DNA of 64,000 nucleotides from Scenedesmus sp. PABB004 (lineage: Eukaryota), in the NCBI GenBank assembly GCA_014905635.1, contig JABVCE010000007.1, positions 310,001-374,000 of the forward strand, given 5' to 3'. The notes below the pieces were generated by a model that saw only the letters and a program-made list of their open reading frames with translations, was not told where the DNA came from and made no database searches. Below, one piece after another: positions 25,631 to 59,029 of the stretch (position 1 is the first letter of the stretch; the number at the start of each line of letters is the position of its first letter). The translations under genes were made by a program, and so were the position numbers.

Positions 25631-26152
25631 CGGCCGCGCAGGCGCCGCCTGGGCGGCCCGTGCGCCCGCTCTGCCGCGGCTGCTGGGCCATGGCGGGCAC
25701 TGGGCCACCCGGGCGCGCGCGGCGGCCGCGCAGCCGCGCCAGGCGGCCGCCAGCGGCGCAGCAGCCGCCCGGGGATCAGTGCGCGCCCCCGCAGCGGCAG
25801 CCCGGCGCGCCGCTCCCCCGGCGCCGGCTCCCGGCGGAGTCTGGCGAGCCGCGCGGCGCGCCCGGCGGCTGCAGCGGCGGCAGCGGCCGACGACGCACCG
25901 CCGCTGGCGGCAGCAGCGCCGGCGGCGGCGCCGGAGCACGCGCCCGTGCTGGGTGCCCGTCCGTCACCCCGCAGCGGTCGCGCGGCGACGACGCGGGCGC
26001 GCGCAGCAGCCAGCGGCCAGCGGCCAGCGGGGGGCGGCCGGGACGGGCGGCGACGCGCCGCGCCCGCGCCCGCGCCGACGCCGCGCGCGCCCTCACGCCG
26101 CGCCCGCGCCGCCCGCGCGCCCACGCCGCGCCGCGCCCGCAGCGCAGCAGCC

Positions 26153-26963
26153 ATGAAGCTCAACATCGCGTACCCCACCACGGGGTGCCAGAAGAAGCTG
26201 GAGATCGATGACGACCAGAAGCTGCGCGCCTTTTACGACCGCCGCCTCGCGGCCGAGGTCGAGGGCGACGTGCTGGGCGAGGAGTTCAAGGGCTACGTCT
26301 TCAAGATCATGGGCGGCCAGGACAAGCAGGTGCGGACCGCACGCGGTCGCGGCGCCAGGCACGCGGCGCCAGGCCGCGGCGGGCGGCGTGCCGCAGGAAG
26401 CCGCGGCGTGCGGCGGGAGCGGAGCGGCAGTCGCGCGGAGCTGGGGCCGGCGGCGGCAGCAGCCACACGTGCCGGAGGAGGCGCAGCAGCAGCGCCAGCA
26501 GCGGCGGCGGCGGCGGCGGCGGCGGCTGGAGCGGCGGCGCCAGCAGCGGCACCAGCAGCTGCCGCGGCGTGCTGACGGCGCCGCGCCGCGCCCGCGCCGC
26601 CGCCGCCGCCACGCCGCCGCAGGGCTTCCCCATGAAGCAGGGCGTGCTGACCAACGGCCGCGTCCAGCTGCTGATGAGCCCCGGCGACCAGTGCTTCCGC
26701 GGCCACGGCCGCCGCAACGGCGAGCGCCGCCGCAAGAGCGTGCGCGGCTGCATCGTGTCGCCCGACCTGAGCGTGCTCAACCTGGTCATTGTGAAGAAGG
26801 GCGAGAAGGACCTGCCCGGCCTCACCGACGAGGAGAAGCCGCGCATGCGCGGCCCCAAGCGCGCCAGCAAGGTGCGGCACCGCGCGCGCCGGCCGCGGCG
26901 CGGCCGTGCCGGACGCGCGCTCCCGCGGCGGCGGCCGCAGCAGCCGCGGCGCGTCCGGCTCAC

Positions 26964-27009
<46 letters not shown>

Positions 27010-27540
27010 GCCCCCCGCGCGGCCGCGCAGATCCGCAAGCTGTTCAACCTCACCAAGGACGACGACGTGCGCAAGTACGTCGACACCTACCGCCGCACGT
27101 TTGAGGTCAACGGCAAGAAGCACAGCAAGGCGCCGCGCATCCAGCGCCTCGTCACGCCCGAGACGCTGCAGCGCAAGCGCAGGAAGGCGTCGATCAAGAA
27201 GGCCAAGCACGAGAAGAGCCGCACCGAGGCCGCCGAGTACCACAAGCTGCTCATGACGGTGCGCGCCGCGCCCGCCGCCGCTGCCGCTGCAAGCAGCGGC
27301 AGCAGCAGCGGCCGCCGCAGCGCGCGGGCCAGCGGCGGCGGCGCGGGCGCGGGCCGGCGGCGGGGCAGCTGCGGGCGGGGCCCCCGGTGTGCGCGCCGCG
27401 GCGCGGGCTGACCCGCGATCCGCGCCCGCCGCGCCGCCCCGCGCCGCGCGCAGCGGCTCAAGGAGCAGCGCGAGCGCCGCTCCGAGTCGCTGGCCAAGAA
27501 GCGCGCGATGCGCATGGCCAGCCAGGCCTCCAAGGAGTGA
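26153..27540 (+). CDS. RPS6: 40S ribosomal protein S6 (eS6)
   Basis: [21 protein letters not shown]..., [32 protein letters not shown]; exons 26153-26329, 26623-26871, 27031-27258, 27454-27540. Confidence 0.98.
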
Positions 27541-27671
27541 GCGGCGCAGGGCGGGCCGCCCGCGGCGCGCCGCAGCAGCTGGCGCGGCTGCTGCGGCGGG
27601 CGCCGTGGCCGCGGCGGCGGGGCCGGTGGCGGCCGGCCGCCGGCGGTGCCAGGCGAGGAGGCGGGGCGGTG

Positions 27672-27676
27672 TGTAA
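27672..27676 (+). terminator. Polyadenylation signal TGTAA of RPS6
   Basis: GTGTGTAACCG about 130 nt after the stop. Confidence 0.65.
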
Positions 27677-28060
27677 CCGGCTCCCATTAAACGCACACAG
27701 CTCGGCCAGCTCGGCCAGCCGCGGCGCAGCCCTCGTCGCGCTGCCGGCGCACGGGCGCCTCGAAACAGAGTTGTTTACACGGAGCGGCACGGGCCGATCC
27801 TGGCCAAACCACGAGAGTCGCAGTCCTCACCACTGACCGCGGCCGAGCAGGGGCGCGCCGGCGCCGCAGCAACAGCCGACGCGCCCCGCCCGCCCGCCCT
27901 CCTGCCTCGCCGCCACACGCGCTCGCTCAAGCGCGCGCGCGCGCGCGCGCGCGTGGCCGGCAGCCGCCGCCCCGGCCTGCGCGCCCCAGCTGCGCCGCGC
28001 GCCAGCCTCTCTGCGGCGCGCCCGCGCCGCGCCGCCGGCGCCGCCGCCGCCGCGCCGGCG

Positions 28061-41360: not shown

Positions 41361-42149
41361 AGTTCCTTCAGCAGCACGCCAGGTTGCTGGGAGCGGCGGG
41401 AGAGTGCGGGCGCCACGCGGGGGCGGAACGGGTCGGCGCACCAAGGCATTTTCGGCGCGCAGAACCTCCAGCCGCCAATTGGCCGCCCCACCGCCGCCCG
41501 ATCGACGTATTCAGCTCAGGGCCGGCCGCGCGGCCGCTGCGGTGCGCCGCGCCGGCGCCGGTGCCGCCCGCGGCGCGCGCAGCGCTCTCGCCCGGGCCGC
41601 CGCCTTGACGCTCGCCCAGCTGCCGGCTGCCGGCCGCACGGGCGCGCCTTCCCTCGTTACTCCTCGTTCTCGAGATAAGCCGTGGTGACCGTGCCGGCGC
41701 AAAAAAGGCCGCCGCGCAGCCGGCGCGGCGCGCGCTCGCGCTGCGCCGGCCTTCTTCTCGCCCTCGATCGTCTCCCGCGACGCCTGCAAGCGTCCGGTGG
41801 TGGTACGCCCTAGTGTGGTGTGAGAAGACACACAGAAATGCAGGGGGGCTCGCGGCACGCCAGGGGGCCGGTGCAGGCCGCTGGCGGCGCGCAGCACAGG
41901 ATGCACTCAAGATGCACACGCGCTCAACCACTCACGCTCACGCACGCGACGCGGCACGCGCCGCGCGCAGCAAAGGAATGGCGCCGGGGGCGGGCGCGCC
42001 GCACGGCGGGCCGCGCCCACTTGGATTTCGCCCGCCGGTCAGCCGCCGCTCGCGCGCGCGGCACGCGGCGGGGAGGGAGGGGCGACAACAACGCACGCAG
42101 AGAGAGTGGGAGGGGGTCAGAGAATAAAATGCGCGCGCCGCCCGCGCCC

Positions 42150-42909
42150 TCACGCCGCGCGCCGCTCGCCCTCGCCCTCGCCCTCGCCCGGCGCCGGCGC
42201 GGGCGCGGGCGGCGCCGCGTCGTCGTGCCCGGGCGCCGCGTCGGCCGAGGCCACGGTGCCGGCGTAGCTGTCGAGGGAGAAGCGGCGCTGCGGCGTGCAG
42301 TGCTTGTTGGTGTCGTCCATCATCATCGAGCAAAACTGACGGCGGCCGGGGCGGCGGGCGCGCGCGGCGTGTGAATGCGCGTGTGAATGTGCGCGCGCGC
42401 GGTGCTTGCCGGGGCTCGCGGCGGCGGCGGCGCGGCGGGCGCGCCCGGCGGCGGGCGCGCGCGCGCGGCGGGCCGGCCGGCGCCGCCGCTCGGTGCGCGG
42501 CGCGCGGTGCGCGCACCTCTGTGTACGTCATCTTGCCCTCGTGCGCCTCGTCGATGCAGGAGGAGACCTCGCTCATCATCTCCTCCGCGAGCGCGGGCGT
42601 GATGTGGTGCTGGCCGAGCAGCTGCTGCTGGAGGTGCAGCAGGTCGGCGCAGGTGATGAAGCCGTCGTGGTCCTGGTCCAGCGCGTCAAACGAGCGGCGC
42701 AGCTGGGGGCGCGCGGGGGACACGTGGGGGGACGGGCGGGGCGGGGCGGGGCGGGGTGTGGAGGGAAGGGGCGGGCGGAGGGGCGCGGTGGGTGAGAGGG
42801 CTCGGAGCGAGAGGCGAGGCGAGAGAGGGGTGGCAAGCGACGGCGCGCCGCTGGCCGCGCGCGCGCGCGCGTGCCCCGTCACGCCCCCTGCTCCCCCTCC
42901 CGCCCCAGC

Positions 42910-42985
<76 letters not shown>

Positions 42986-45900
42986 GCCGCCGCCGGCGCC
43001 CCGCGCCCCGCGCACCGCGTCCTTGGCCTTGGTGTAGTTTGAGTTAGCCAGCATCGCGGCGAGGAACTCGTCCACGTCGACGTAGCCCTCGCCGTAGAGG
43101 TCGCTCGCCGCAATGAGGCCTTCGAGCGCCTCCGGGCCAATCTCGCTCACAAAGCCCGCCTTGGCCAGGCTGCCCGTGCTGCGCAGCGCCTCGTGCAGCT
43201 CTGCGGCGGTGGGTGTGTGTGGGCGTGGGGGTGTGAGGTGTGTGGGCGGGTGTGGGCGTGGGCGCGTGTGTGGGTGTGGGCGTGGGGGTTGGATGTGCGT
43301 GTGTGTGTGGGCGTGTGGGCGGGGGGTGTGGTGAGGAGAGGAGGAGGGAGGGGAGGGGCGGGAAGGGGGACAGGGGACAGGGGAGGGGCGGCGGCCCCGC
43401 CGCGCGCCGGGGGGCGCGGCGCGCACCCGCTGGCGTGAGGTGGCCGTCGCCGTCCTTGTCGAGGGCGTAGAACGCCTCCTGCGCGGGGCACACACGCGGG
43501 CGGGTGGGTGGGGGGGGAGTTGTTGTTGTTGTTGTTGTGAGTGTGTGGGGGTGTGCATGTGTGTGTGTTTTGGGGGGGGGGGGGTCAAGGCCCTGCTGCC
43601 CCCCCCCATACACACACATCCCCGCCCGCGCGCCGCGCGCCTTGAGCGTCGTGATGTGGCGGTCTGTCACGGTGTGGCAGAGCACGCTGAGCGCGAGGCG
43701 CTTCATGCGGGACATGCCGGCAAACGCCTCCAGCCGCGCGACGACGTGGCTCATGCCGCCTGGGGGGCGGCCACGGGGGGGGGGGGGGGGCGTGTGAGTG
43801 GGCGCGGGCGCGCGTGTGAGTGGGCGTGCGCGGGCAGGAGTCGGCGCGCGTGCGGGGGGATGAGCCGGGGAGGAGGGGAGGGGCGGGCGGGGGCGGCGCA
43901 CCCGCGGCGGTCGTGCTGCCGTCGGCGGGCGCGGGGCCGGGGCCCTCCTCGGGCTGGCGGAACCAGTCGTGCGCGAGCAGCTCCTCCGCGCTCGGCCGCG
44001 CTGCGGCGCGGCGCCGCGGCGGCGGCGCGTCAGCGGGCGGCGGCGGGCGCGGCAGGCGGCGGCGGGCGCTGCATGCGCTGCGTGTGCTGCGTGCTGTGTG
44101 CTGCGTGCGCTGCGGCCGCTGCGCCGCCCACCCGTGGCGTCAAGCTTGAGCATCTCCCTCACGAGCGCCTTGCCCGCGACGCTCACGTGGGCCCACTCGT
44201 CGGGGCACATGCGGAAGTGGCCTGCGTGTGGCCGCCGCCGCGCGGCGGCGTGGGCGGGGCGGGCGGCGGGCGGCGGCGGGGGGCAGGCGTGACGCGAGCG
44301 GCGGCCCCGCACGCCGCACAGCCCCCCTCGCGCCGCCGCCGCCGCGTGCGCCGCCGCCGCCGCGTGCGCCGCCGCCGCGTGCGCCGCCGCCGCGGTGCGT
44401 GGCGGCCTCACCCCCCGCCGCCTCACCTGTGCGGACCTTTGCCACGATGTCCTCGTCGCTGCGGCCGTTGAAGGGCGGCCGGCCGCTGAGCAGGATGAAG
44501 AGCACCACCTGCGTGGCCGGGGGGGGGGTGTCAGGGTTTAGGGTTCAGGGTTGCGAGGGTTCAGGGTTGTGAGGGTTCAGGGTTTCAGTGATTCAGGTTT
44601 TTGGTGCGTTGGAGGGGCTCTTCAAGCATTGGGGGAGACGGGCGGCGGCTTGAGGCGGCGCCGGGCGGTGCGCGGCGGCGTGGCGCACCCCCGCGCTCCA
44701 GACGTCTGCGCCCTTGTCGTAGTCGCGCCAGAGCACCTCGGGCGCGACGTAGTACGGCTGCGCGTGCGTGTGTGTGTTGTGTGTGTGTTGTGTGTGTGTT
44801 GTGTGTTGTGTGTGCGTGTGGAGGGGGGGGGGGGGGCAGCGGCGGCGGCGCCCGGGCAGTCAGTCACGCCCAGGCGGCGGCGGCGGCTCGGCTGCCCGCC
44901 GGGGGCCTCGGCCGGCCGGGGCCCCGCCACTGCGCGCGGCGCGACCGCCGCCGCGCGCCGCTCGCGGCCGCCGCGCACCGTGCCGAACTTTTTGCAGAGC
45001 CGCTTGCCCGGGACGCAGAAGGTGCTGCAGCCAAAGTCGATGACCTTCAGCGTCAGCGCCCCGCTCTCCGCCTTGGAGAGCAGCAGGTTCTCGGCTTGAT
45101 GTCCCTGTTGGAGGCGGTGGGCGGGGTGGTGGGCGGGTGGTGGGTGGGTGGTGGGAGGGGTGGGCGGGGTGGGCGGGTGAGAGAGTGCGTGAGGGCGGGC
45201 GGGCGGCGCGTGGCGCGGCGTGCCGAGGCGCGCCAGCCAGCCCCCCGCGCGCGGCCCGCGCAGCGCGCGCCGCGCGCCCCACGCGCGGCGCTGGCCGCCG
45301 GCGGCGCGCGTGCGCGGCGCGGCGGCGCGCGGCGCGGCGGCGCGCGCCTGTGTATGACGTGCTTTGCGTGCGCGTGCGCGAGGAAGGAGAGCAGCGCCTG
45401 CGCCTTGGCCGCGGCCATGCCCTCGGTCATGTGCCCCGACCGGATGATCTGGTCGAAGAGCTCGCCGCCGTTGCAGAGCTCCATCACGAGGTAGAAGCTG
45501 GCCGCGTCCTGCAGCACCGCCTCCAGGCCCACCATGTTGGGGTGGCCCGAGAGCAGGCGCATGATCGCGACCTCCTTCACGATGTCTGGGGGTGAGAGGG
45601 GGGGTGGAGGGAGGGGGGTGGAGGGAGGGGGAGGCCGGACGTGAGCGGCGGCTCGGGCGGCGGGGCGCGGCGCGGGGCGCGGGGCGCGGCGAGCGCGCAG
45701 CAGTCGCCCCGCAGCAGTCCCCCCGCGCGCTGAAACCCGCCCGCCCGCGCCCGCCCCCACACAACCCAAGCCCTCGCCGCCCCCCCCCCCCCCCCCCCCC
45801 CGGGCCCCGCGCCTCACTCTGGAGCTGCTGCAGCAGCGCCTCCTTGCCCTCCGCCTTCTTCATGATCTTCACCGCGTAGCGCCGCCCGTCCTTGAGCGAC

Positions 45901-46455
45901 ATCGCGACCTGCACGCGCGCGTAGTGCCCCGTGCCGATGACCTGCGGCGCACGGCGGCGGCGGCGCGGGGTGCGCGGGGTGGTGCGCGGGGCGTGAGCGG
46001 CAGGCGCGCGGCGCCGCCGCGCGCGCCGCCGCGCCGCCGGCCTCTTCCCGCGCCCCCGCCCCTCCCCGCCCGCGCGCCCGGAACGGGCGTTGAGGCCAGC
46101 CACCACAGCCCCCCCCCCTCCAGAAAAACCAGCCCCGCCGGCCACGCGCCTGGCCGAGGCGGTAGTGCTCCGCAAACTTGAGCCGCGCGCCGGCCTTGAC
46201 CTCGCGCTGCGCCGCCGTCACGGCGGCGCGGATCTCGGGGTACTCGTCCCCCTCCGGCGGCGGCGCGGGCGCGACCTTGATGCTGATCGCCGCCGGGCCG
46301 CCCAGGCCGTCGGCCTTGGCGGTCTGGATGCTCGCCGAGCCGCCGCCGCCGCCGTCGCCGCCGAGGCTCGCGCGGCCGCCCGGCGCCGCGCCCGCCGCGG
46401 CGCCGCCGCCGCGCGGCTCCGCGGCGTCGGCCGCGCTGCCGCACACGTTGCCCAT
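42150..46455 (-). CDS. Calcium-dependent protein kinase (CDPK) with EF hands; apparent 1-nt frameshift near 45093
   Basis: MGNVCG acylation motif; IGTGHYARV, YAVKIM, LVMELCNGGELFD, HRDIK(P)ENLLL, IDFG, YYVAPEVL; EF hands DKDGDGHLT and DQDHDGFIT. Confidence 0.93.
42912..42984. repeat. (GCC)n microsatellite in a CDPK intron
   Basis: Perfect trinucleotide run. Confidence 0.9.
44531..44600 (+). repeat. Degenerate telomere-like repeats (TTTAGGG/TTCAGGG) in a CDPK intron
   Basis: tcagggtttagggttcagggttgcgagggttcagggttgtgagggttcagggtttcag. Confidence 0.65.
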
Positions 46456-53013: not shown

Positions 53014-54962
53014 ATGCTCGGGGCGGCGCTGCGGTGCCCGCGCGCGGCGGCAGCAGCAGCGGCGCTCACAAGCGGCGCACGGGCGGTCGCGGTCGCGCCC
53101 AGGGCCGCTGCGTCACGGCCCATGGCCACGCAGGCGCAGGTGCAGAGCCGCAGCGGCGGCGGTGCGCGGCAGCCGCGCGGTGGGGCCGCCCAGCGCGCCG
53201 CGCCGACCGACCTACCGCGGCCGCGCAGGTGGCGGCGGGCGCCGCGGCCGGCGGCGCCGGCGACGCGCCCCCGCGGCGGGCGCGCGTGGCGGTGGGCCAG
53301 ATGACCAGCGTCGGGGACCAGGCGGCCAACTTTGAGACCTGCCGGCGCCTGGCAGAGGTGCGGGCCCCGCACCCCGCGCGGCTGGCCGCGCCGCTGGCCG
53401 CGCTGCGCTGTCACCGCCGTCACCGCCGCCGACGCCGGACCTGCCGCAGCAAGCCGCCGCGGCGGGCTGCTCGGTGCTGTTCCTGCCCGAGTGTTTCTCA
53501 TTCATTGGCGCCAGCCAGCCAGAGGTGCGGCGGGGCGTGCGCCGCGCGGGCGGCAGCCGCGCCGCGAACCGGCGGGCCGGCCACCTCAAGCCCTGCTTGC
53601 ACCCCGCCCATCCTGCCGCCCGCGCCGCCGCCGGCAGTCGCTGGCCAAGGCGGAGCCGCTGGACGGCCCGGCCATGGCGCGCTACCGCCAGCTGGCGCGG
53701 TGCGGCGCGCGGCGGGCGCGGACGGGGGCGCCGCCGCCTGCGGGGCGAGGAGGCCCTGGCGCTCGCCGCGACAACCCCCGCTGCCGCCTCACCGCAGTGA
53801 CACGGGGCTGTGGCTGTCGCTGGGAGGCTTCCAGGAGGTGGGGCCCGACCCGGAGCACCTGTGAGCGAGCGCGGGCGCGGTGCCGCCGTGCGCCGCCGCG
53901 CCGCGCGCGCCCGCCGAGCCGCCGGCGAGCGCCAAAACGCCCCGCCCTGCCCCGCGCCGCGCGGCGCAGGCACAACACGCACGTGGTGCTCGATGCCGAC
54001 GGCGGCACGGTCGCAGCGTACCGCAAGGCGCGGCGGCCTCCCAGCAGCGCTGCGAGCGCTGCCGAGCCCCACGCCGCGCGCCGGCCCGCGCCGCGCGCCG
54101 CCGTGGCCGACCCCGCATCGCCTGCGCGCTGCGCGCCGCGCAGGTGCACCTGTTTGACGTGGACGTGCCAAACGGGCCTGTGCTCATGGAGTCACGCACC
54201 ACCGCGCCCGGGCGCGAGGTGCGGCGGCGGCGCGGCGGCGCGGCGCGCGCCGCGGCCCCCGCCAACTCGCTGCCTGCCGCCGCCGCCGCCGCCGCCGCCG
54301 GCGGCGCGCCGGCGCGCCAGCTGGTGGCGTGCGACAGCCCCGCGGGCCGCCTGGGGCTGTCTGTCTGCTACGACCTGCGCTTCCCCGAGGTCTATCAGGC
54401 GCTCACGTGGCACCGCGGCGCGGAGGTGCTGCTCGTGCCGTCGGCCTTCACCAAGGTCACTGGTGCGGCGGCGGCGCGGCGCGCTCTGCCCCGCGGCGCA
54501 CGGCCCCGCGGCAGCGTTAACGCAACGTTGCGCGGCGCGCCACGCCTGCCGCCGCCACGCCCGCGCCCGCGCAGGCGCGGCGCACTGGGAGGTGCTGCTG
54601 CGCGCGCGCGCGGTCGAGTGCCAGGCGTTTGTGGTCGCGGCGGCGCAGGCGGGCGTGCACAACGAGCGGCGGGAGAGCTACGGCCACTCGCTCGTCGTCG
54701 ACCCCTGGGGCACGGTGATCGCGAGGCTTGACGACCCCCACGCCACGGGTGCGCGCGCGGGGCCGGCAGGCGTCGTCGCAAGATTGCCGCAGCGCGGCGC
54801 GGAGCGGCCCGCAGCACCCGCCGCCGCCGCGCCGCGCGCGCCCCCGCAGGCATCGCCGTGGCGGAGCTCGACTTTTCTGCGCTCGCCGCGGTGCGCGCCA
54901 AGATGCCGATCGCCGAGCACCGGGCGCGTGGGCGCGCGCTGCTGGCGGGGCAGCTGTGCTGA
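53014..54962 (+). CDS. NIT1: Nitrilase-superfamily amidase, Nit1 (deaminated glutathione amidase)-like
   Basis: Glu-Lys-Cys triad: [62 protein letters not shown]; second in-frame ATG at 53122. Confidence 0.92.
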
Positions 54963-55372
54963 GGCTGCTGGGCTGCGCGGGGGTGGTTGGGCCCGTGCCG
55001 GTTACTGCCCCCTTGGCCCCCTCCCTTCGCCGCCTGCTCGGTCACGCCACCACCCGGTCACACGTGCCACACCAGCCGCAGACTGCAGAGTCGACTCTAG
55101 GTCCCCACACGAGACTAGTCTACGTCAGGTCAAACTGGCGGCTCACAGGAGCCCTATGATCACAGCGTCACAGCCGTCACAACCATCAATGAACAGGCTC
55201 GGCGCGCGTGAGAGTCCAGTCCCGCCGCCGGCCGCCACACAGCCGGTCACGGGGGCCGCCACTGCGGGCGCACGCGCGCTTGCACAGCGCAGCGCAGCGT
55301 GCAGCGACGGGCAGCCCGGCCCGCACGCGCGAGCCGGCGTCACCGCTCAGCTCAGCAGCAGCAGGCCGCCGC

Positions 55373-56249
55373 TCACGCCAGGCGGCGGCCCCAGCCGCCG
55401 TAGCCATAGTCGTCGTAGCCGCCGCCGCCGCCGCCGCCGAGCGACGCGCTCTGCGCGGACGCGGCCGCCTGCGCCGCAGAGCCTGCGCGGCAGGTGCGGG
55501 CGGGGCACGCGCGTGAGCGGGGCGGCGCGTGCGCACAGCACCGCGCGCAGCGCGGTCCGCGCGCGGCAGCCCCAGCGCGCCGCTGCAGCAGCCACGCACC
55601 TCCCCAGCCGTTGGAGCTGCTGAACGCGTCGGCGCTCGCGCCGGCGGCGCTGCCGCCCCAGCCGCCCAGGGAGCTGGACGACGCGCGCGCGGCGGCCGAG
55701 GCGGAGGAGCCGCCAAAGCCGCCAAAGCCCCACTGCAGCAGCTTGCGGCCCCAGCCGCCGGCCTGCGCCTGCGCCTGGGCCTGCGACTGGGACATGCCGC
55801 CCATGCTCTGGCTCTGCGCCTGCGCCTGCGCTTGCGCTGCGGGGCGGGCAGCGCGTGCGCGGGCGGCGGTGGTGAGCGGCGGCGCAGCGCGCAGGCGCAG
55901 GCGCGGCCGGCCGCCGGCCCCCAGGCCGCGCCTGCCGCGGCGGGCCGCGCACCTCCCGCGCCGCCGCCGCCGCCCATGGCCTGCGACTGCGCCTGGGCCT
56001 GGGACATGCTGCCGCCGCCGCCCCAGCCGCCGAGACCCGAGCTCTGCGACTGCGCCTGCGCCTGCGCCTGCGCGGCCGAGGAGCCGCCGCCCCAGCCGCC
56101 ATAAGAGGGACGGTACCCGCCTGTGTGTGTGTGTGCGTGCGCGTGCACGGGGCAGAGGGCGGGGCGGGGGTGTGTCAGCGGGCGCGTCGGCGAGTCGCGG
56201 GCTTAGACCTTAAACCCTGACCGGGGGCCGGGTTCTAGGGAGACCGGGC

Positions 56250-56284
<35 letters not shown>

Positions 56285-57110
56285 TCGCCGCGCGCGCGCG
56301 CTCACCGCCGTAGCCGCCCCAGCGGTTGCCGTAGCCGCCCCAGCCGCCGTGGTGGCCCCACCCGCCCCACTGCAGCATCTTGCGCCCGCCGTAGCCGCTG
56401 CCGTACATGGGCCCGGGGCCGTACATGGGCTGGGGGCCGTACATCATCGGCTGCATGGGGCCCATCGGGCCCCAGGCGCCGGCCATCGGGGGCGGGCCGT
56501 CGTAGGCGGTGCGCGCGACCTGGCCGTTGGGCAGGAGCGTGGCCATCTCGGTGCGGCCGTTGACCGTGTTGGAGGTCATCATCGTGCTCTGGCCCTGCCC
56601 GTTACTGTTGACGCTGGACGAGGACGACATGGTCGTCACCACCGGCGCCTGCGCCTGCGGCGGCGGCACGACCTGCTGCGGCGCGCGCACGGGCTGCACG
56701 GGCGCCTTGGCCTGCGGCTGCGCCGCGACTGGCAGCGGCGCGCGCGGCGGCGGCGCGCGCGGCGGCGGCGGGCGAGGGAGGGCGGCGTCAGGCGGCGGGG
56801 CGGGAGGGGGCACTGCTGCCGGGGGCAGCCTGCAGGGGCGCAGCGTTGAGCGCTGCGCCGCCTCACCGGTCTTGGCGCTGGACGTCGACGCGCCGCCGGC
56901 GCCGTTCTGGGCGAGCGCGCCGGGCGCCGCGGCGAGCAGCAGTACTGCGGGCGGGCGCGCGGGGGGTGATCGTGGAGTGATTCTCACGCGCGTAAGCGTG
57001 CGGCGGGGCCGCCACGCGCGCCGGCGCTGCCGGGAGCTGCTGGCGTCACCGCCGCGGCGGCGGCGCGCACCTGCTGCGACGCAGGCGAGGCGAGCCATCG
57101 CGGGACGCAT
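55373..57110 (-). CDS. Secreted Gly/Ser/Ala/Gln/Trp-rich low-complexity protein with repeated GRK(L/M)LQW and GRRL motifs (6 exons)
   Basis: Signal peptide [22 protein letters not shown]; all five introns are phase 1; SQAQAQAQ and GGWG repeats. Confidence 0.8.
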
Positions 57111-57285: not shown

Positions 57286-57291
57286 TTTATA
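57286..57291 (-). promoter_or_regulatory. Putative TATA box of the secreted protein gene
   Basis: TATAAA on the minus strand about 180 nt upstream of the ATG, in very GC-rich DNA. Confidence 0.55.
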
Positions 57292-57578
57292 GCCCGGCGA
57301 AGGCGAGCGCCAGCTTCCGATCGATAAACTGAACGCTCGATAACCTGCATGGAAGCTGGTCGCAGCAGCACGGCGAGGCAACTCCAGCTGCTCATCGCCG
57401 TCACCGCAGCTGCTCATCGCAATCACCGAGCTTACACCAGCCAGTACGCGCCAACTCGAGCGCCGGCACGCCGCGTGCTGCCCTCCCCGGCCGCGACGGC
57501 CGGTGTGTACTGCTGCTGCCGCGGCGGGTGACCTCAGGGCGGCGGCCTCAGGGCAGCCCAGGGCGGTCGCAGCTCACC

Positions 57579-59029
57579 TCACTCGGCCAGCAGCCCCGGC
57601 GCGCAGTCGGGCAGGAAGGCGTTGGTGGCGAGGGCGGACGCCACGACCGCCTCGCGCGGCAGCGGCGCGCCGGCGCCGCCGCCGCGCATCTCCGCCAGGC
57701 TCGCCAGCCCCGCGCCCGGCCGCCGGCTCTGCGCGTGCTCGGTCAGCAGGCCCTCCGCGGCGAGCCAATCCAGGAAGGCATCCCACGCGCTCGCGCGCAT
57801 CACGCCCCACGCGCCGCGGCCGTCCAGGTAGGCCGGCGCCACCGCTGCCTGGCTCTCGGCGACCATGCCGCGCTCGAGGCCCTCCGCCGCGCCGGCGACC
57901 GCGAGCAGCGCGTCCACCGCGTCGCCGGGGTGCGCGGCGGCGTGCGCGTAGCCGCGCGCCGTCGCCGCGAGGAACGCGCGCACCGCGTCGCCCTGACCCG
58001 CGAGCGTGTCGGGGTGCGCCGCGAGCACGGGGGAGTAGCCGTACGGGATGCCCGCGCCGGCCAGCTTGAACACGCGCAGCTCCACGCCCGCGCGCGCCGC
58101 CGCCACGCCCTCCCACGGCATGAACACCTGCCGCCGCGGGCGGCGGCCGCGGGGGCAACACGGCTCGGCAGCTCAGCCGTGGCGGCAACGGCTCAGCCGC
58201 GGCGGCTCAGCGCCCCCGCGCCCGCGCGCGCGAGCGTCGCTGCGCGCGCACCCAGGTCGCGTCGGCCTCGCCCGCGATCAGCGTGTCCCAGATGCCCAGC
58301 ATGGGCGGCGTGAGCTCCTCAAACTCGCCCCGCCCGCCGTCGGCCCGGATCAGCGCCTGCACGATGCGCGACTCGTAGCTGCGCGCGAGGCGCAGGGCGG
58401 CGAGGCGCGGCGGCGGCGGGGGCGGCGGTGGGGGCCTCGCGGCCTCACCGGCCCGACGTGCGGGCGCGCGGCGTACGCGCGCGGTCGGCCCCGCTCCCTC
58501 GGCCGGCGCCGCCGCAAGCAGCCCAGAGCGGCGGGCCTGCCGCCCCCGTCGCTGCCGCCGCACCGGGCCGCGTAGGAGGCGTAGCGCTTGCCATCCAGGT
58601 CGCGCGGGCGGGCGATGCCGCTCGACGCGAGCGCCACGACCGCGCTCTCGTCGCGCTGCAGCAGCGCCGCGACGGCCACGATCTTGGGCTTGGCGCCGCC
58701 GGGCCAGGTCGCGTGGGAGATGACCGTCTCGCTCGGCACGACCGCGAGCGCGGCCGAGCCGTCGGCGAGGCGCGACGCGGGCGTGGTCTGCGCGGCGGCG
58801 GCGGCGGTGGCGCGGCGTCGGGGGAGAGAGGACAGGCGGAGTTTGCCAGCGGCCATGTGTGGCCGTGCCTCGCGCGCGCGCGCACCTTGTAGCCGTCCAC
58901 GCTGGGCGAGAGCAGCTCCACGTCCAGCCCGGCGTCCGCATACCAGCCGCGGTGCAGCGCGAGCGCCATGCCAGAGTGGTTGGTGTTGAGCGTCCAGTCC
59001 AGCGCGACGGTGAAGCGCGTGCGCGCCAT
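57579..59029 (-). CDS. NMT1/THI5-like (ThiY/SsuA substrate-binding fold) protein
   Basis: VALDWTLNTNHSG, GWYADAGLDVEL, RPRDLDGKRYASY, GEADATW/VFMPWEG, IPYGYSPVL, FLAATARGY, ATNAFL; 3 introns. Confidence 0.85.

What the first reader, a model, noticed from the sequence alone, without database searches (positions are those of the whole stretch)
55373..57110. Secreted polyprotein resembling a neuropeptide-style precursor of Trp-amidated peptides
After a signal peptide ending ALA|Q, the protein is divided by three Gly-dibasic sites: [25 protein letters not shown] and the C-terminal [12 protein letters not shown]-Gly-basic-basic is the canonical signal for convertase cleavage, carboxypeptidase trimming and PAM amidation, and PAM and amidated products are established in Chlamydomonas. 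Two products would end GGW-amide, reminiscent of animal Wamide peptides. Cleavage after RK(L/M)L, a site-1-protease-type motif, would expose N-terminal Gln (pyroglutamate). Between the sites are silk-like SQAQAQAQ and SSASAAA blocks on symmetric phase-1 exons, so an alternative role as a processed self-assembling wall or adhesive protein is plausible. Processing and function are inference.
Basis: partly seen in the sequence, partly recalled or inferred. Interest (0 to 1): 0.7.

Follow-up and report, generated by a model that had tools for sequence, protein, structure and literature searches.

The report
Secreted algal protein cut into modules
This is a secreted, glycine-rich green-algal protein that is probably cut by a Golgi protease into silk-like pieces for the cell wall or slime; the pieces may be capped with an amide as animal hormones are, but they are too large and repetitive to look like neuropeptides.

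Summary
The gene is real: six exons, five GT-AG phase-1 introns, 351 aa, GC3 0.95, signal peptide, and exactly three dibasic pairs, all G-R[RK]-[LM]-[LA]. The main signal is the R[RK]-x-[LA] tetrapeptide, a site-1-protease (S1P) / diatom-RXL type motif. It is common in this genome (RK[LM]LQ 28 vs 1 control), and lies in fasciclin, papain and LRR genes too. S1P, two PAM-like genes, glutaminyl cyclase and M14 carboxypeptidases are encoded. But Gly precedes 11 of 31 other coding-like sites genome-wide. G-RR-LM is also cut in Arabidopsis and RRIL is removed in diatoms, both without PAM. Products are 76-128 aa; GGWG is a 7-fold internal repeat; Trp-before-Gly (4 of 9) and N-terminal Gln (3 of 10) are not conserved. 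Best reading: an S1P-processed low-complexity wall or matrix polyprotein (0.55). Amidation of at least one module about 0.3; Wamide-like signalling about 0.1.

The parts
57287..57292 (-). TATA-like box (TATAAA), about 180 nt upstream of the ATG
   Evidence: sequence
57071..57110 (-). Exon 1: start codon, first half of signal peptide
56867..56944 (-). Exon 2: rest of signal peptide; predicted cleavage ALA|Q between 56910 and 56909
   Evidence: hydropathy; cleavage site inferred
56306..56728 (-). Exon 3: Gln/Pro/Ala linker, conserved Ser/Thr/Asn four-strand beta-meander (aa about 69-115), Pro/Met/Tyr tail, site 1, start of module 2
   Evidence: homologue block score 79, 0 of 2000 shuffles reach it; AF2 strands with pLDDT 67-76
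56373..56387 (-). Site 1: G-RK-ML, followed by Gln159
55953..56120 (-). Exon 4 (phase 1-1): GGWG repeats and two Ala-Gln alternating blocks
   Evidence: same blocks in P0001 (69% identity to this exon) and in the C16 gene
55600..55836 (-). Exon 5 (phase 1-1): Ala-Gln blocks, site 2, Ser/Ala blocks of module 3
55736..55750 (-). Site 2: G-RK-LL, followed by Gln271
55373..55482 (-). Exon 6: Ser/Ala/Gln block, acidic Tyr-rich end, terminal site 3 and stop
   Evidence: the C16 gene has a similar D-Y-rich end
55376..55390 (-). Site 3: G-RR-LA then stop

Best explanation
A secreted, low-complexity multi-module precursor of a GC-rich green alga. Shown: the gene model, the signal peptide, three R[RK]-x-[LA] tetrapeptides, the enzymes in the genome, and the same design in two relatives. 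Inferred: after ER entry and signal removal, a Golgi S1P-type subtilase cuts after RKML158 and RKLL270. This releases module 1 (about 13.5 kDa; small beta-meander plus Pro/Met/Tyr tail), module 2 (about 10.9 kDa) and module 3 (about 7.4 kDa). Modules 2 and 3 are Gly/Trp/Tyr linkers alternating with A-x-A-x-A blocks (x = Q, S; N in the paralogue). They most likely act as structural material of the wall or mucilage: the alternating blocks stack as beta-strands, the aromatic Gly repeats act as flexible stickers or oxidative cross-link points, and the precursor form keeps them soluble in the ER. Trimming of the leftover tetrapeptide and PAM amidation may follow as end-capping but is not needed for this reading.
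For: All 3 dibasic pairs are followed by [LM][LA]. This matches RxxL/RxLx cut by plant S1P/SBT6.1 (RALF23 RRIL) and the RRLL/RKLL of processed pectin methylesterases. An MBTPS1/S1P orthologue is encoded (PF23090, best E 3e-20). The motif is a general secretory mark here: RK[LM]LQ 28 vs 1 reversed control, RR[LM]LQ 101 vs 19. It lies in a fasciclin, a papain-family and an LRR gene (the LRR match is weak, E 0.006). The homologue's site 1 is G-RR-SLL, which keeps the S1P register while changing the rest. Precedent for extracellular polyproteins cut at such motifs: diatom silaffins, whose mature peptides lack RRIL/RRNL. Composition after the signal peptide: 24% Gly, 15% Ala, 13% Ser, 11% Gln, no N-glycosylation sequon, and the only Cys is in the signal peptide. 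The closest atlas cluster to the homologue was loricrin-like, score 0.76, a lead only.
Against: No expression, localisation or cleavage data; no RNA run was listed. AF2 of exon 5 alone shows no beta structure (pLDDT 54.7, one helix over the site), so self-assembly is unsupported by prediction. Gly is kept at 9 of 11 family sites, above the local (27%, P 2e-4) and genome-wide (35%, P 2e-3) rates, though the sites are not independent. Both genes end in [WY]-G-RR-L with at most a 7-residue tail, where an S1P cut frees nothing useful; that points to C-terminal trimming or amidation rather than release of a module. The C16 gene also has a G-RR pair not followed by Leu.
Confidence: 0.55

Rival explanations
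1. Two-step maturation with amidation. S1P (or a basic-site subtilase) cuts, the R[RK]xL remnant is removed, and PAM turns the exposed Gly into an amide, so the large modules end in Trp/Tyr/Gly-amide. The amide neutralises the C-terminus of a structural or adhesive module, or marks a large amidated product as in proGATI. This can coexist with the best explanation.
For: Gly at 9 of 11 family sites; both exceptions are the first site near the N-terminus (E-RKLL 11 residues after the presumed signal peptide of the C16 gene; L-RRLL at the edge of P0001, possibly intronic). Terminal G-RR-L sites in both genes, and G-RRR-LA-stop in a duplicated small Cys-rich secreted gene. Two PAM-like loci and M14 carboxypeptidases. 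In Chlamydomonas, large proteins are amidated and an internal G-RR site of VLE1 is cut and amidated. Diatoms show that the tetrapeptide can be removed whole.
Against: G-RR-LM is cut in Arabidopsis PROSCOOP12 and RRIL is removed in diatoms, and both lineages lack PAM. Genome-wide, Gly is as frequent just after the motif (32%) as just before it (35%), which looks like a flexible linker. Two Gly sites in the C16 gene end mere spacers. A CPB-type enzyme cannot remove Leu-Leu (general knowledge). 331 of 771 Chlamydomonas secreted proteins have G(K/R)(K/R), yet 3 amidated peptides were found in all six samples.
Confidence: 0.3
2. Neuropeptide-style precursor whose products are diffusible Trp-amide signals acting on receptors.
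For: Signal peptide, Gly-dibasic sites and the full enzyme set are present; an amidated chemoattractant exists in Chlamydomonas. The C16 gene would give a very short aromatic-amide peptide between two RR pairs, and both genes share an Asp-Tyr-rich end that a second protease could free.
Against: Products are 76-128 aa. The nearest basic residue upstream of sites 2 and 3 is 83 and 61 residues away. GGWG is an internal repeat, 7 copies of which 2 touch a site. The would-be amidated residue varies (W in 4 of 9; also G, A, Y, P) and Gln after the cut is kept in 3 of 10. No repeated short peptide cassettes. No Pfam match.
Confidence: 0.1
3. The motifs are not cut; the protein is secreted whole as a glycine-rich wall protein and R[RK]LL is a sorting signal or a relic.
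For: A terminal RRLA has nothing to release. No processing data exist for this alga.
Against: The motif matches experimentally cut sites in plants and diatoms. It is kept at 11 positions in three proteins whose other sequence diverges, and basic residues are otherwise rare in the modules.
Confidence: 0.12

Closest known systems
Diatom RXL polyproteins (silaffin Sil1p, silacidins, cingulins)
   Same: Signal peptide, low-complexity extracellular modules separated by RR-x-L motifs, including one at the end of the last unit; motif removed from the mature peptides (passages)
   Different: Green alga; modules are Gly/Trp/Tyr and Ala/Gln/Ser, not Lys/Ser or Asp/Ser; 76-128 aa and not tandem copies; PAM is present here but absent from diatoms; no sequence homology tested
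Plant S1P/SBT6.1 substrates (RALF23, GOLVEN/CLEL6, group 2 pectin methylesterases) and SBT3.5-cut PROSCOOP12
   Same: RRxL/RKLL tetrapeptide in a secreted precursor; G-RR-LM in PROSCOOP12 (passages); orthologous protease encoded
   Different: Three sites rather than one or two; no Cys-rich or short conserved ligand domain; land plants cannot amidate by PAM
Chlamydomonas amidated precursors (proGATI Cre03.g204500, Cre12.g487700, Cre17.g722300, VLE1)
   Same: Green-algal secreted proteins with Gly-basic sites; large amidated products; same enzyme classes
   Different: Those end in G-R(n) needing only carboxypeptidase, or are cut after basic residues; here Leu-x follows every pair; proGATI has folded domains, this protein is low-complexity; homology to them not tested
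Animal Wamide neuropeptide precursors (GLWamide, MIP/AstB, APGWamide; features recalled, from no call)
   Same: W-G-basic-basic at two sites
   Different: No short repeated peptides; products 10-20 times longer; W not conserved in relatives; resemblance covers two residues
Glycine-rich structural proteins (plant GRPs, loricrin, silks; recalled)
   Same: Gly-Gly-aromatic repeats with Ala/Ser/Gln-rich blocks
   Different: Internal protease sites; no Pfam match at E up to 0.1-1; atlas similarity only 0.76

Membership tests
Neuropeptide-type amidated peptide precursor | Signal peptide, no other transmembrane segment | tested here: met
   hydropathy only; SignalP not available
Neuropeptide-type amidated peptide precursor | Gly followed by a basic pair | tested here: met
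   3 of 3; 9 of 11 in the family
Neuropeptide-type amidated peptide precursor | PAM (PHM and PAL) and carboxypeptidase encoded | tested here: met
   CPB-type specificity of the M14 enzymes not tested
Neuropeptide-type amidated peptide precursor | Short peptides bounded by basic sites, with a conserved C-terminal signature | tested here: not met
   76-128 aa products; amide-bearing residue varies, W in 4 of 9
Neuropeptide-type amidated peptide precursor | Amidated product detected and bioactive | not testable with these tools
   needs peptidomics and assay
Wamide family | Repeated short W-amide peptides and homology to metazoan precursors | tested here: not met
   no repeated short peptides; no metazoan precursor among the 2 hits; no Pfam match
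S1P/RXL-processed secretory precursor | R-x-x-L or R-x-L-x motif in an exposed linker of a secreted protein | tested here: met
   RKML, RKLL, RRLA; 8 further such sites in two relatives
S1P/RXL-processed secretory precursor | S1P orthologue encoded | tested here: met
   PF23090, four exons on C1, best E 3e-20; catalytic domain not inspected
S1P/RXL-processed secretory precursor | Cleavage shown at the motif and dependent on S1P | not testable with these tools
   needs N-terminomics and protease loss
Self-assembling glycine-rich structural protein | Low-complexity Gly/aromatic and Ala-rich blocks | tested here: met
Self-assembling glycine-rich structural protein | Beta-sheet assembly, wall or matrix location | tested here: inconclusive
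   single-chain AF2 of exon 5 is low-confidence with no strands; location not testable

The most novel reading that the evidence does not exclude
Green algae couple S1P-type cleavage to a second trimming step and PAM, so that G-R[RK]-L-x is a combined release-and-amidate signal. This family (and perhaps a third of the R[RK]LLQ sites in the genome) would then yield C-terminally amidated, partly pyroglutamylated extracellular modules, including short Asp-Tyr-rich aromatic-amide peptides from the conserved C-terminus. That would supply a class of PAM substrates outside cilia-based signalling and a route to amidation that dibasic-site predictors misread.
Probability: 0.25. Interest if true: 0.72.

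Novelty: new variant of a known kind. Interest (0 to 1): 0.45.

Why it matters
PAM substrates in algae are largely unknown: 3 amidated peptides in all six samples of one study, plus VLE1, and a cilia-independent role is only suspected. This small family offers a clean test, since every module ends in Gly plus an S1P-type tetrapeptide and both candidate pathways predict different termini. Even without amidation it points to S1P/RXL processing as a general maturation step of green-algal extracellular proteins, linking plant RRLL and diatom RXL processing, and it names candidate silk-like wall components. My literature searches found no paper describing the motif or this family in green algae; they cover only the open-access library.

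Tried and rejected
Wrong frame: the reference I first used for exon 5 was one base off, so (own genome; one of three homologue searches), protein 2 and row 3 say nothing about this protein. I repeated the own-genome, findings and Pfam searches in the right frame; the homologue search could not be repeated, so exon 5 was never searched against the protein collection. Homologue searches with exon 3 (0 of 406 candidates) and alignment A1 (1 hit at E 0.49, 8% covered) gave nothing. One search gave 2 hits: P0001 is real, P0002 is a bacterial-type repeat protein, rejected. Own-genome protein searches missed the C16 gene (other hits L108, L110, L150 were noise), so more paralogues may exist. Composition-adjusted BLAST of exon 5 against the last C16 exon is not significant (best E 0.29). 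Paralogy rests on whole-protein score 341 vs at most 247 in 300 shuffles, two shared 8-residue motifs and the shared design. Metagenome, viral and prokaryote-genome scans found no relative (0 of 24 loci relevant, 68, 98, 105). Atlas: no usable hit for exon 3. Foldseek of the beta-meander: no match at E up to 0.001. No RNA holder was listed. Supplement of PMC6313938: no family motif found; its table holds only predicted amidated peptides, long cells are cut, and 6 predicted peptides begin LL after a 'known motif' cut. Earlier findings of the scan: nothing relevant. Terminal RR[LM]x-stop scan: 45 matches vs 15 control, mostly non-coding; 6 of 44 others passed the coding filter and only one duplicated gene looked secreted by eye. 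A DDYG likeness of the C-terminus to sulfakinin-type peptides (recalled) was dropped because the C16 gene does not keep the register.

Full report
Observation. The window is 79% GC and lies in a 40-Mb, 80-contig genome. Intron style and gene content mark it as a GC-rich green alga; this is inference. The finding is a six-exon minus-strand gene, 57110 to 55373, with five GT-AG phase-1 introns of 116-185 nt, 351 codons and GC3 0.95. Four of five introns have a branch-like word, and a TATAAA lies about 180 nt upstream. Splicing is not verified: no RNA run was listed. A donor-like word overlaps the stop, but the putative intron lacks a branch word and leads into poorly coding sequence.

What is signal and what is composition. 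The mature protein is 24% Gly, 32% in modules 2-3 and 40% in the ten residues before the sites, so Gly at 3 of 3 has P 0.014-0.064. [LM][LA] after all three has P about 3e-6, post hoc. The tetrapeptide is the real mark. GGWG occurs 7 times and only two copies touch a site. Cutting at the sites gives pieces of 128, 107 and 76 residues if amidated, and the nearest upstream basic residues are 83 and 61 residues from sites 2 and 3.

The motif in this genome. RK[LM]LQ codons occur 28 times vs 1 for the reversed control, and RR[LM]LQ 101 vs 19 (that pattern excludes preceding codons that start with T and following codons that start with C). I examined 120 of these 129 places, leaving out 8 tandem-repeat copies and 1 unlisted. 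An ad hoc coding filter (no stop, Arg at most 12%, GC3 at least 0.85) passed 33, of which 2 are this gene. Gly precedes 11 of the other 31 (35%; flank Gly 15%, P 0.004) and 10 of the 87 that failed. Gly is nearly as common right after the motif (32%). One of the 11 is the family member below, and some passes are surely intracellular or antisense. G-RKLLQ lies in a fasciclin gene, before the mature domain of a papain-family protease and in an LRR gene. So the motif, often with Gly, is a general mark of extracellular proteins here.

Enzymes. Two loci (C37, C46) encode PHM, PAL-like and transmembrane parts. C46 exons match solved PAM chains (PAL E 3e-10, PHM E 0.005). C37 lacks the Tyr of the DGYCNSR motif. 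An MBTPS1/S1P gene, a plant-type glutaminyl cyclase and M14 carboxypeptidases are present.

Relatives. A full-library HMMER search with exon 3 gave 2 hits. P0001, an unnamed Logan ORF, is a true homologue: its non-repetitive block scores 79, reached by 0 of 2000 shuffles. It shares the Ala-Gln blocks, and its site 1 reads G-RR-SLL-G, with Gly kept, Gln lost and Pro before the Gly. AF2 models the shared block as a four-strand meander (pLDDT about 70-76) with no significant fold match. The motif survey uncovered a second gene on C16 (L227; 8 exons, 377 aa, GC3 0.93) of the same design: signal peptide, GGWG/GGYG linkers, A-Q-A-Q, A-S-A-S and A-N-A-N blocks, six R[RK]L sites, an acidic Tyr-rich end and a terminal YG-RRLL with a 7-residue tail. 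It is a probable paralogue: whole-protein score 341 vs at most 247 in 300 shuffles and two shared 8-mers, but exon-level BLAST is not significant. Across the three proteins Gly precedes 9 of 11 sites (P 2e-4 at local, 2e-3 at genome-wide rate; sites are related, so these overstate). Both exceptions are the most N-terminal site. The residue before the Gly is Trp in 4 of 9 and the residue after the tetrapeptide is Gln in 3 of 10. One of three homologue searches was lost to a frame error, so the family is under-sampled.

What is known. Plant S1P/SBT6.1 cuts after RxxL/RxLx, as in RALF23, and PROSCOOP12 is cut after G-RR-LM by SBT3.5 (passages of PMC13082318; PMC12605736). Processed pectin methylesterases carry RRLL or RKLL (passage of PMC11494411). 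Mature silaffins lack their RRIL/RRNL, and RXL marks many diatom wall precursors (passages of PMC4557024 and PMC5525289). Land plants and diatoms lack PAM, while chlorophytes, including non-ciliated ones, have it (passages of PMC6529398). In Chlamydomonas 331 of 771 soluble secreted proteins have G(K/R)(K/R), and an S1P-like enzyme and two CPB-like enzymes exist (PMC6313938, parts 2-3 of 7 read, supplement searched). Three amidated peptides were seen in all six ectosome samples, on large proteins (passages of PMC6919629), and an internal G-RR of VLE1 is cut and amidated (passages of PMC9351486). PMC5461114 gave nothing relevant. Searches for the motif or family in algae found no describing paper; subscription literature was not searched.

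Mechanism. Shown: anatomy, motif, enzymes, conservation. Inferred (about 0.75-0.8): Golgi cleavage after the tetrapeptide by an S1P-type enzyme, giving Gln-started modules that the glutaminyl cyclase could cyclise. Inferred (0.55 overall): the modules are wall or mucilage material, with alternating Ala blocks stacking and aromatic Gly repeats as stickers; single-chain AF2 does not show this. Open (about 0.3): removal of the remnant and amidation. For it are Gly conservation, terminal G-RR-L sites that release nothing, two PAM genes and the diatom precedent for removing the tetrapeptide. Against it are the same G-RR-Lx and the same removal in PAM-less lineages, and the symmetric Gly enrichment. 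Unlikely (about 0.1): Wamide-like signalling.

Verdict. Observation confirmed, interpretation partly supported. It works like a diatom RXL or plant S1P precursor; it fails the short-peptide test for a neuropeptide precursor and is not a Wamide family member. It is an apparently undescribed small family and a good test case for algal amidation. Interest 0.45.

Noticed in passing
L043 (G000:C37, about 182400-185700) and L044 (G000:C46, about 1217700-1221900): Two bifunctional PAM-like genes, where Chlamydomonas has one. The C37 copy reads DGCSPR where the C46 copy and solved PAL have DGYCNSR, so its lyase half may be inactive (role of the Tyr recalled).
   Followed up: partly
L227 (G000:C16:325221-323039, minus): Probable paralogue with six R[RK]L sites, paired sites around short spacers, and a G-RR pair without Leu that would free a three-residue aromatic peptide.
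   Followed up: yes
L130 (C15:115695) and L222 (C67:39476): Two apparently identical copies of a small Cys-rich secreted protein gene ending G-RRR-LA-stop.
   Followed up: partly
L045 (G000:C10, about 266500-268500, minus): Fasciclin-domain gene with a Lys/Pro/Thr-rich linker, GG-RKLLQ and a short Asn/Ala/Tyr-rich C-terminal peptide after the site.
   Followed up: partly
L113 (G000:C46, about 1244550-1246600, plus): Secreted protein with Ala/Gln/Ser-rich, Cys-paired repeats and Ser-Pro runs, starting after an RTLH|Q motif.
   Followed up: no
window 53500-54963 (+): Multi-exon nitrilase-family gene (CN_hydrolase, E 1e-4 on one exon), convergent with the finding; stops about 410 nt apart.
   Followed up: partly
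window 57576-59000 and beyond (-): NMT1/THI5-like gene (E 6e-7) ending about 470 nt upstream of the finding's ATG.
   Followed up: partly
window 56208-56220; L227 intron 6: Short telomere-like words (TTTAGGG type, label recalled) inside introns of both family genes.
   Followed up: no
G000:C13:2026-6794 and C59:3981-15859: Pattern hits recur every 2,372-2,378 bases near contig starts (3 and 6 copies): a tandem, probably subtelomeric, repeat.
   Followed up: no
window 26001-28000 and 42001-46000: Strong strand skews (AT skew 0.32; GC skew 0.10-0.18 with AT skew -0.15 to -0.20), unexplained.
   Followed up: no
window 55262-55376 (-): Possible cryptic intron whose donor overlaps the stop codon; no branch word, downstream frame poorly coding.
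   Followed up: partly
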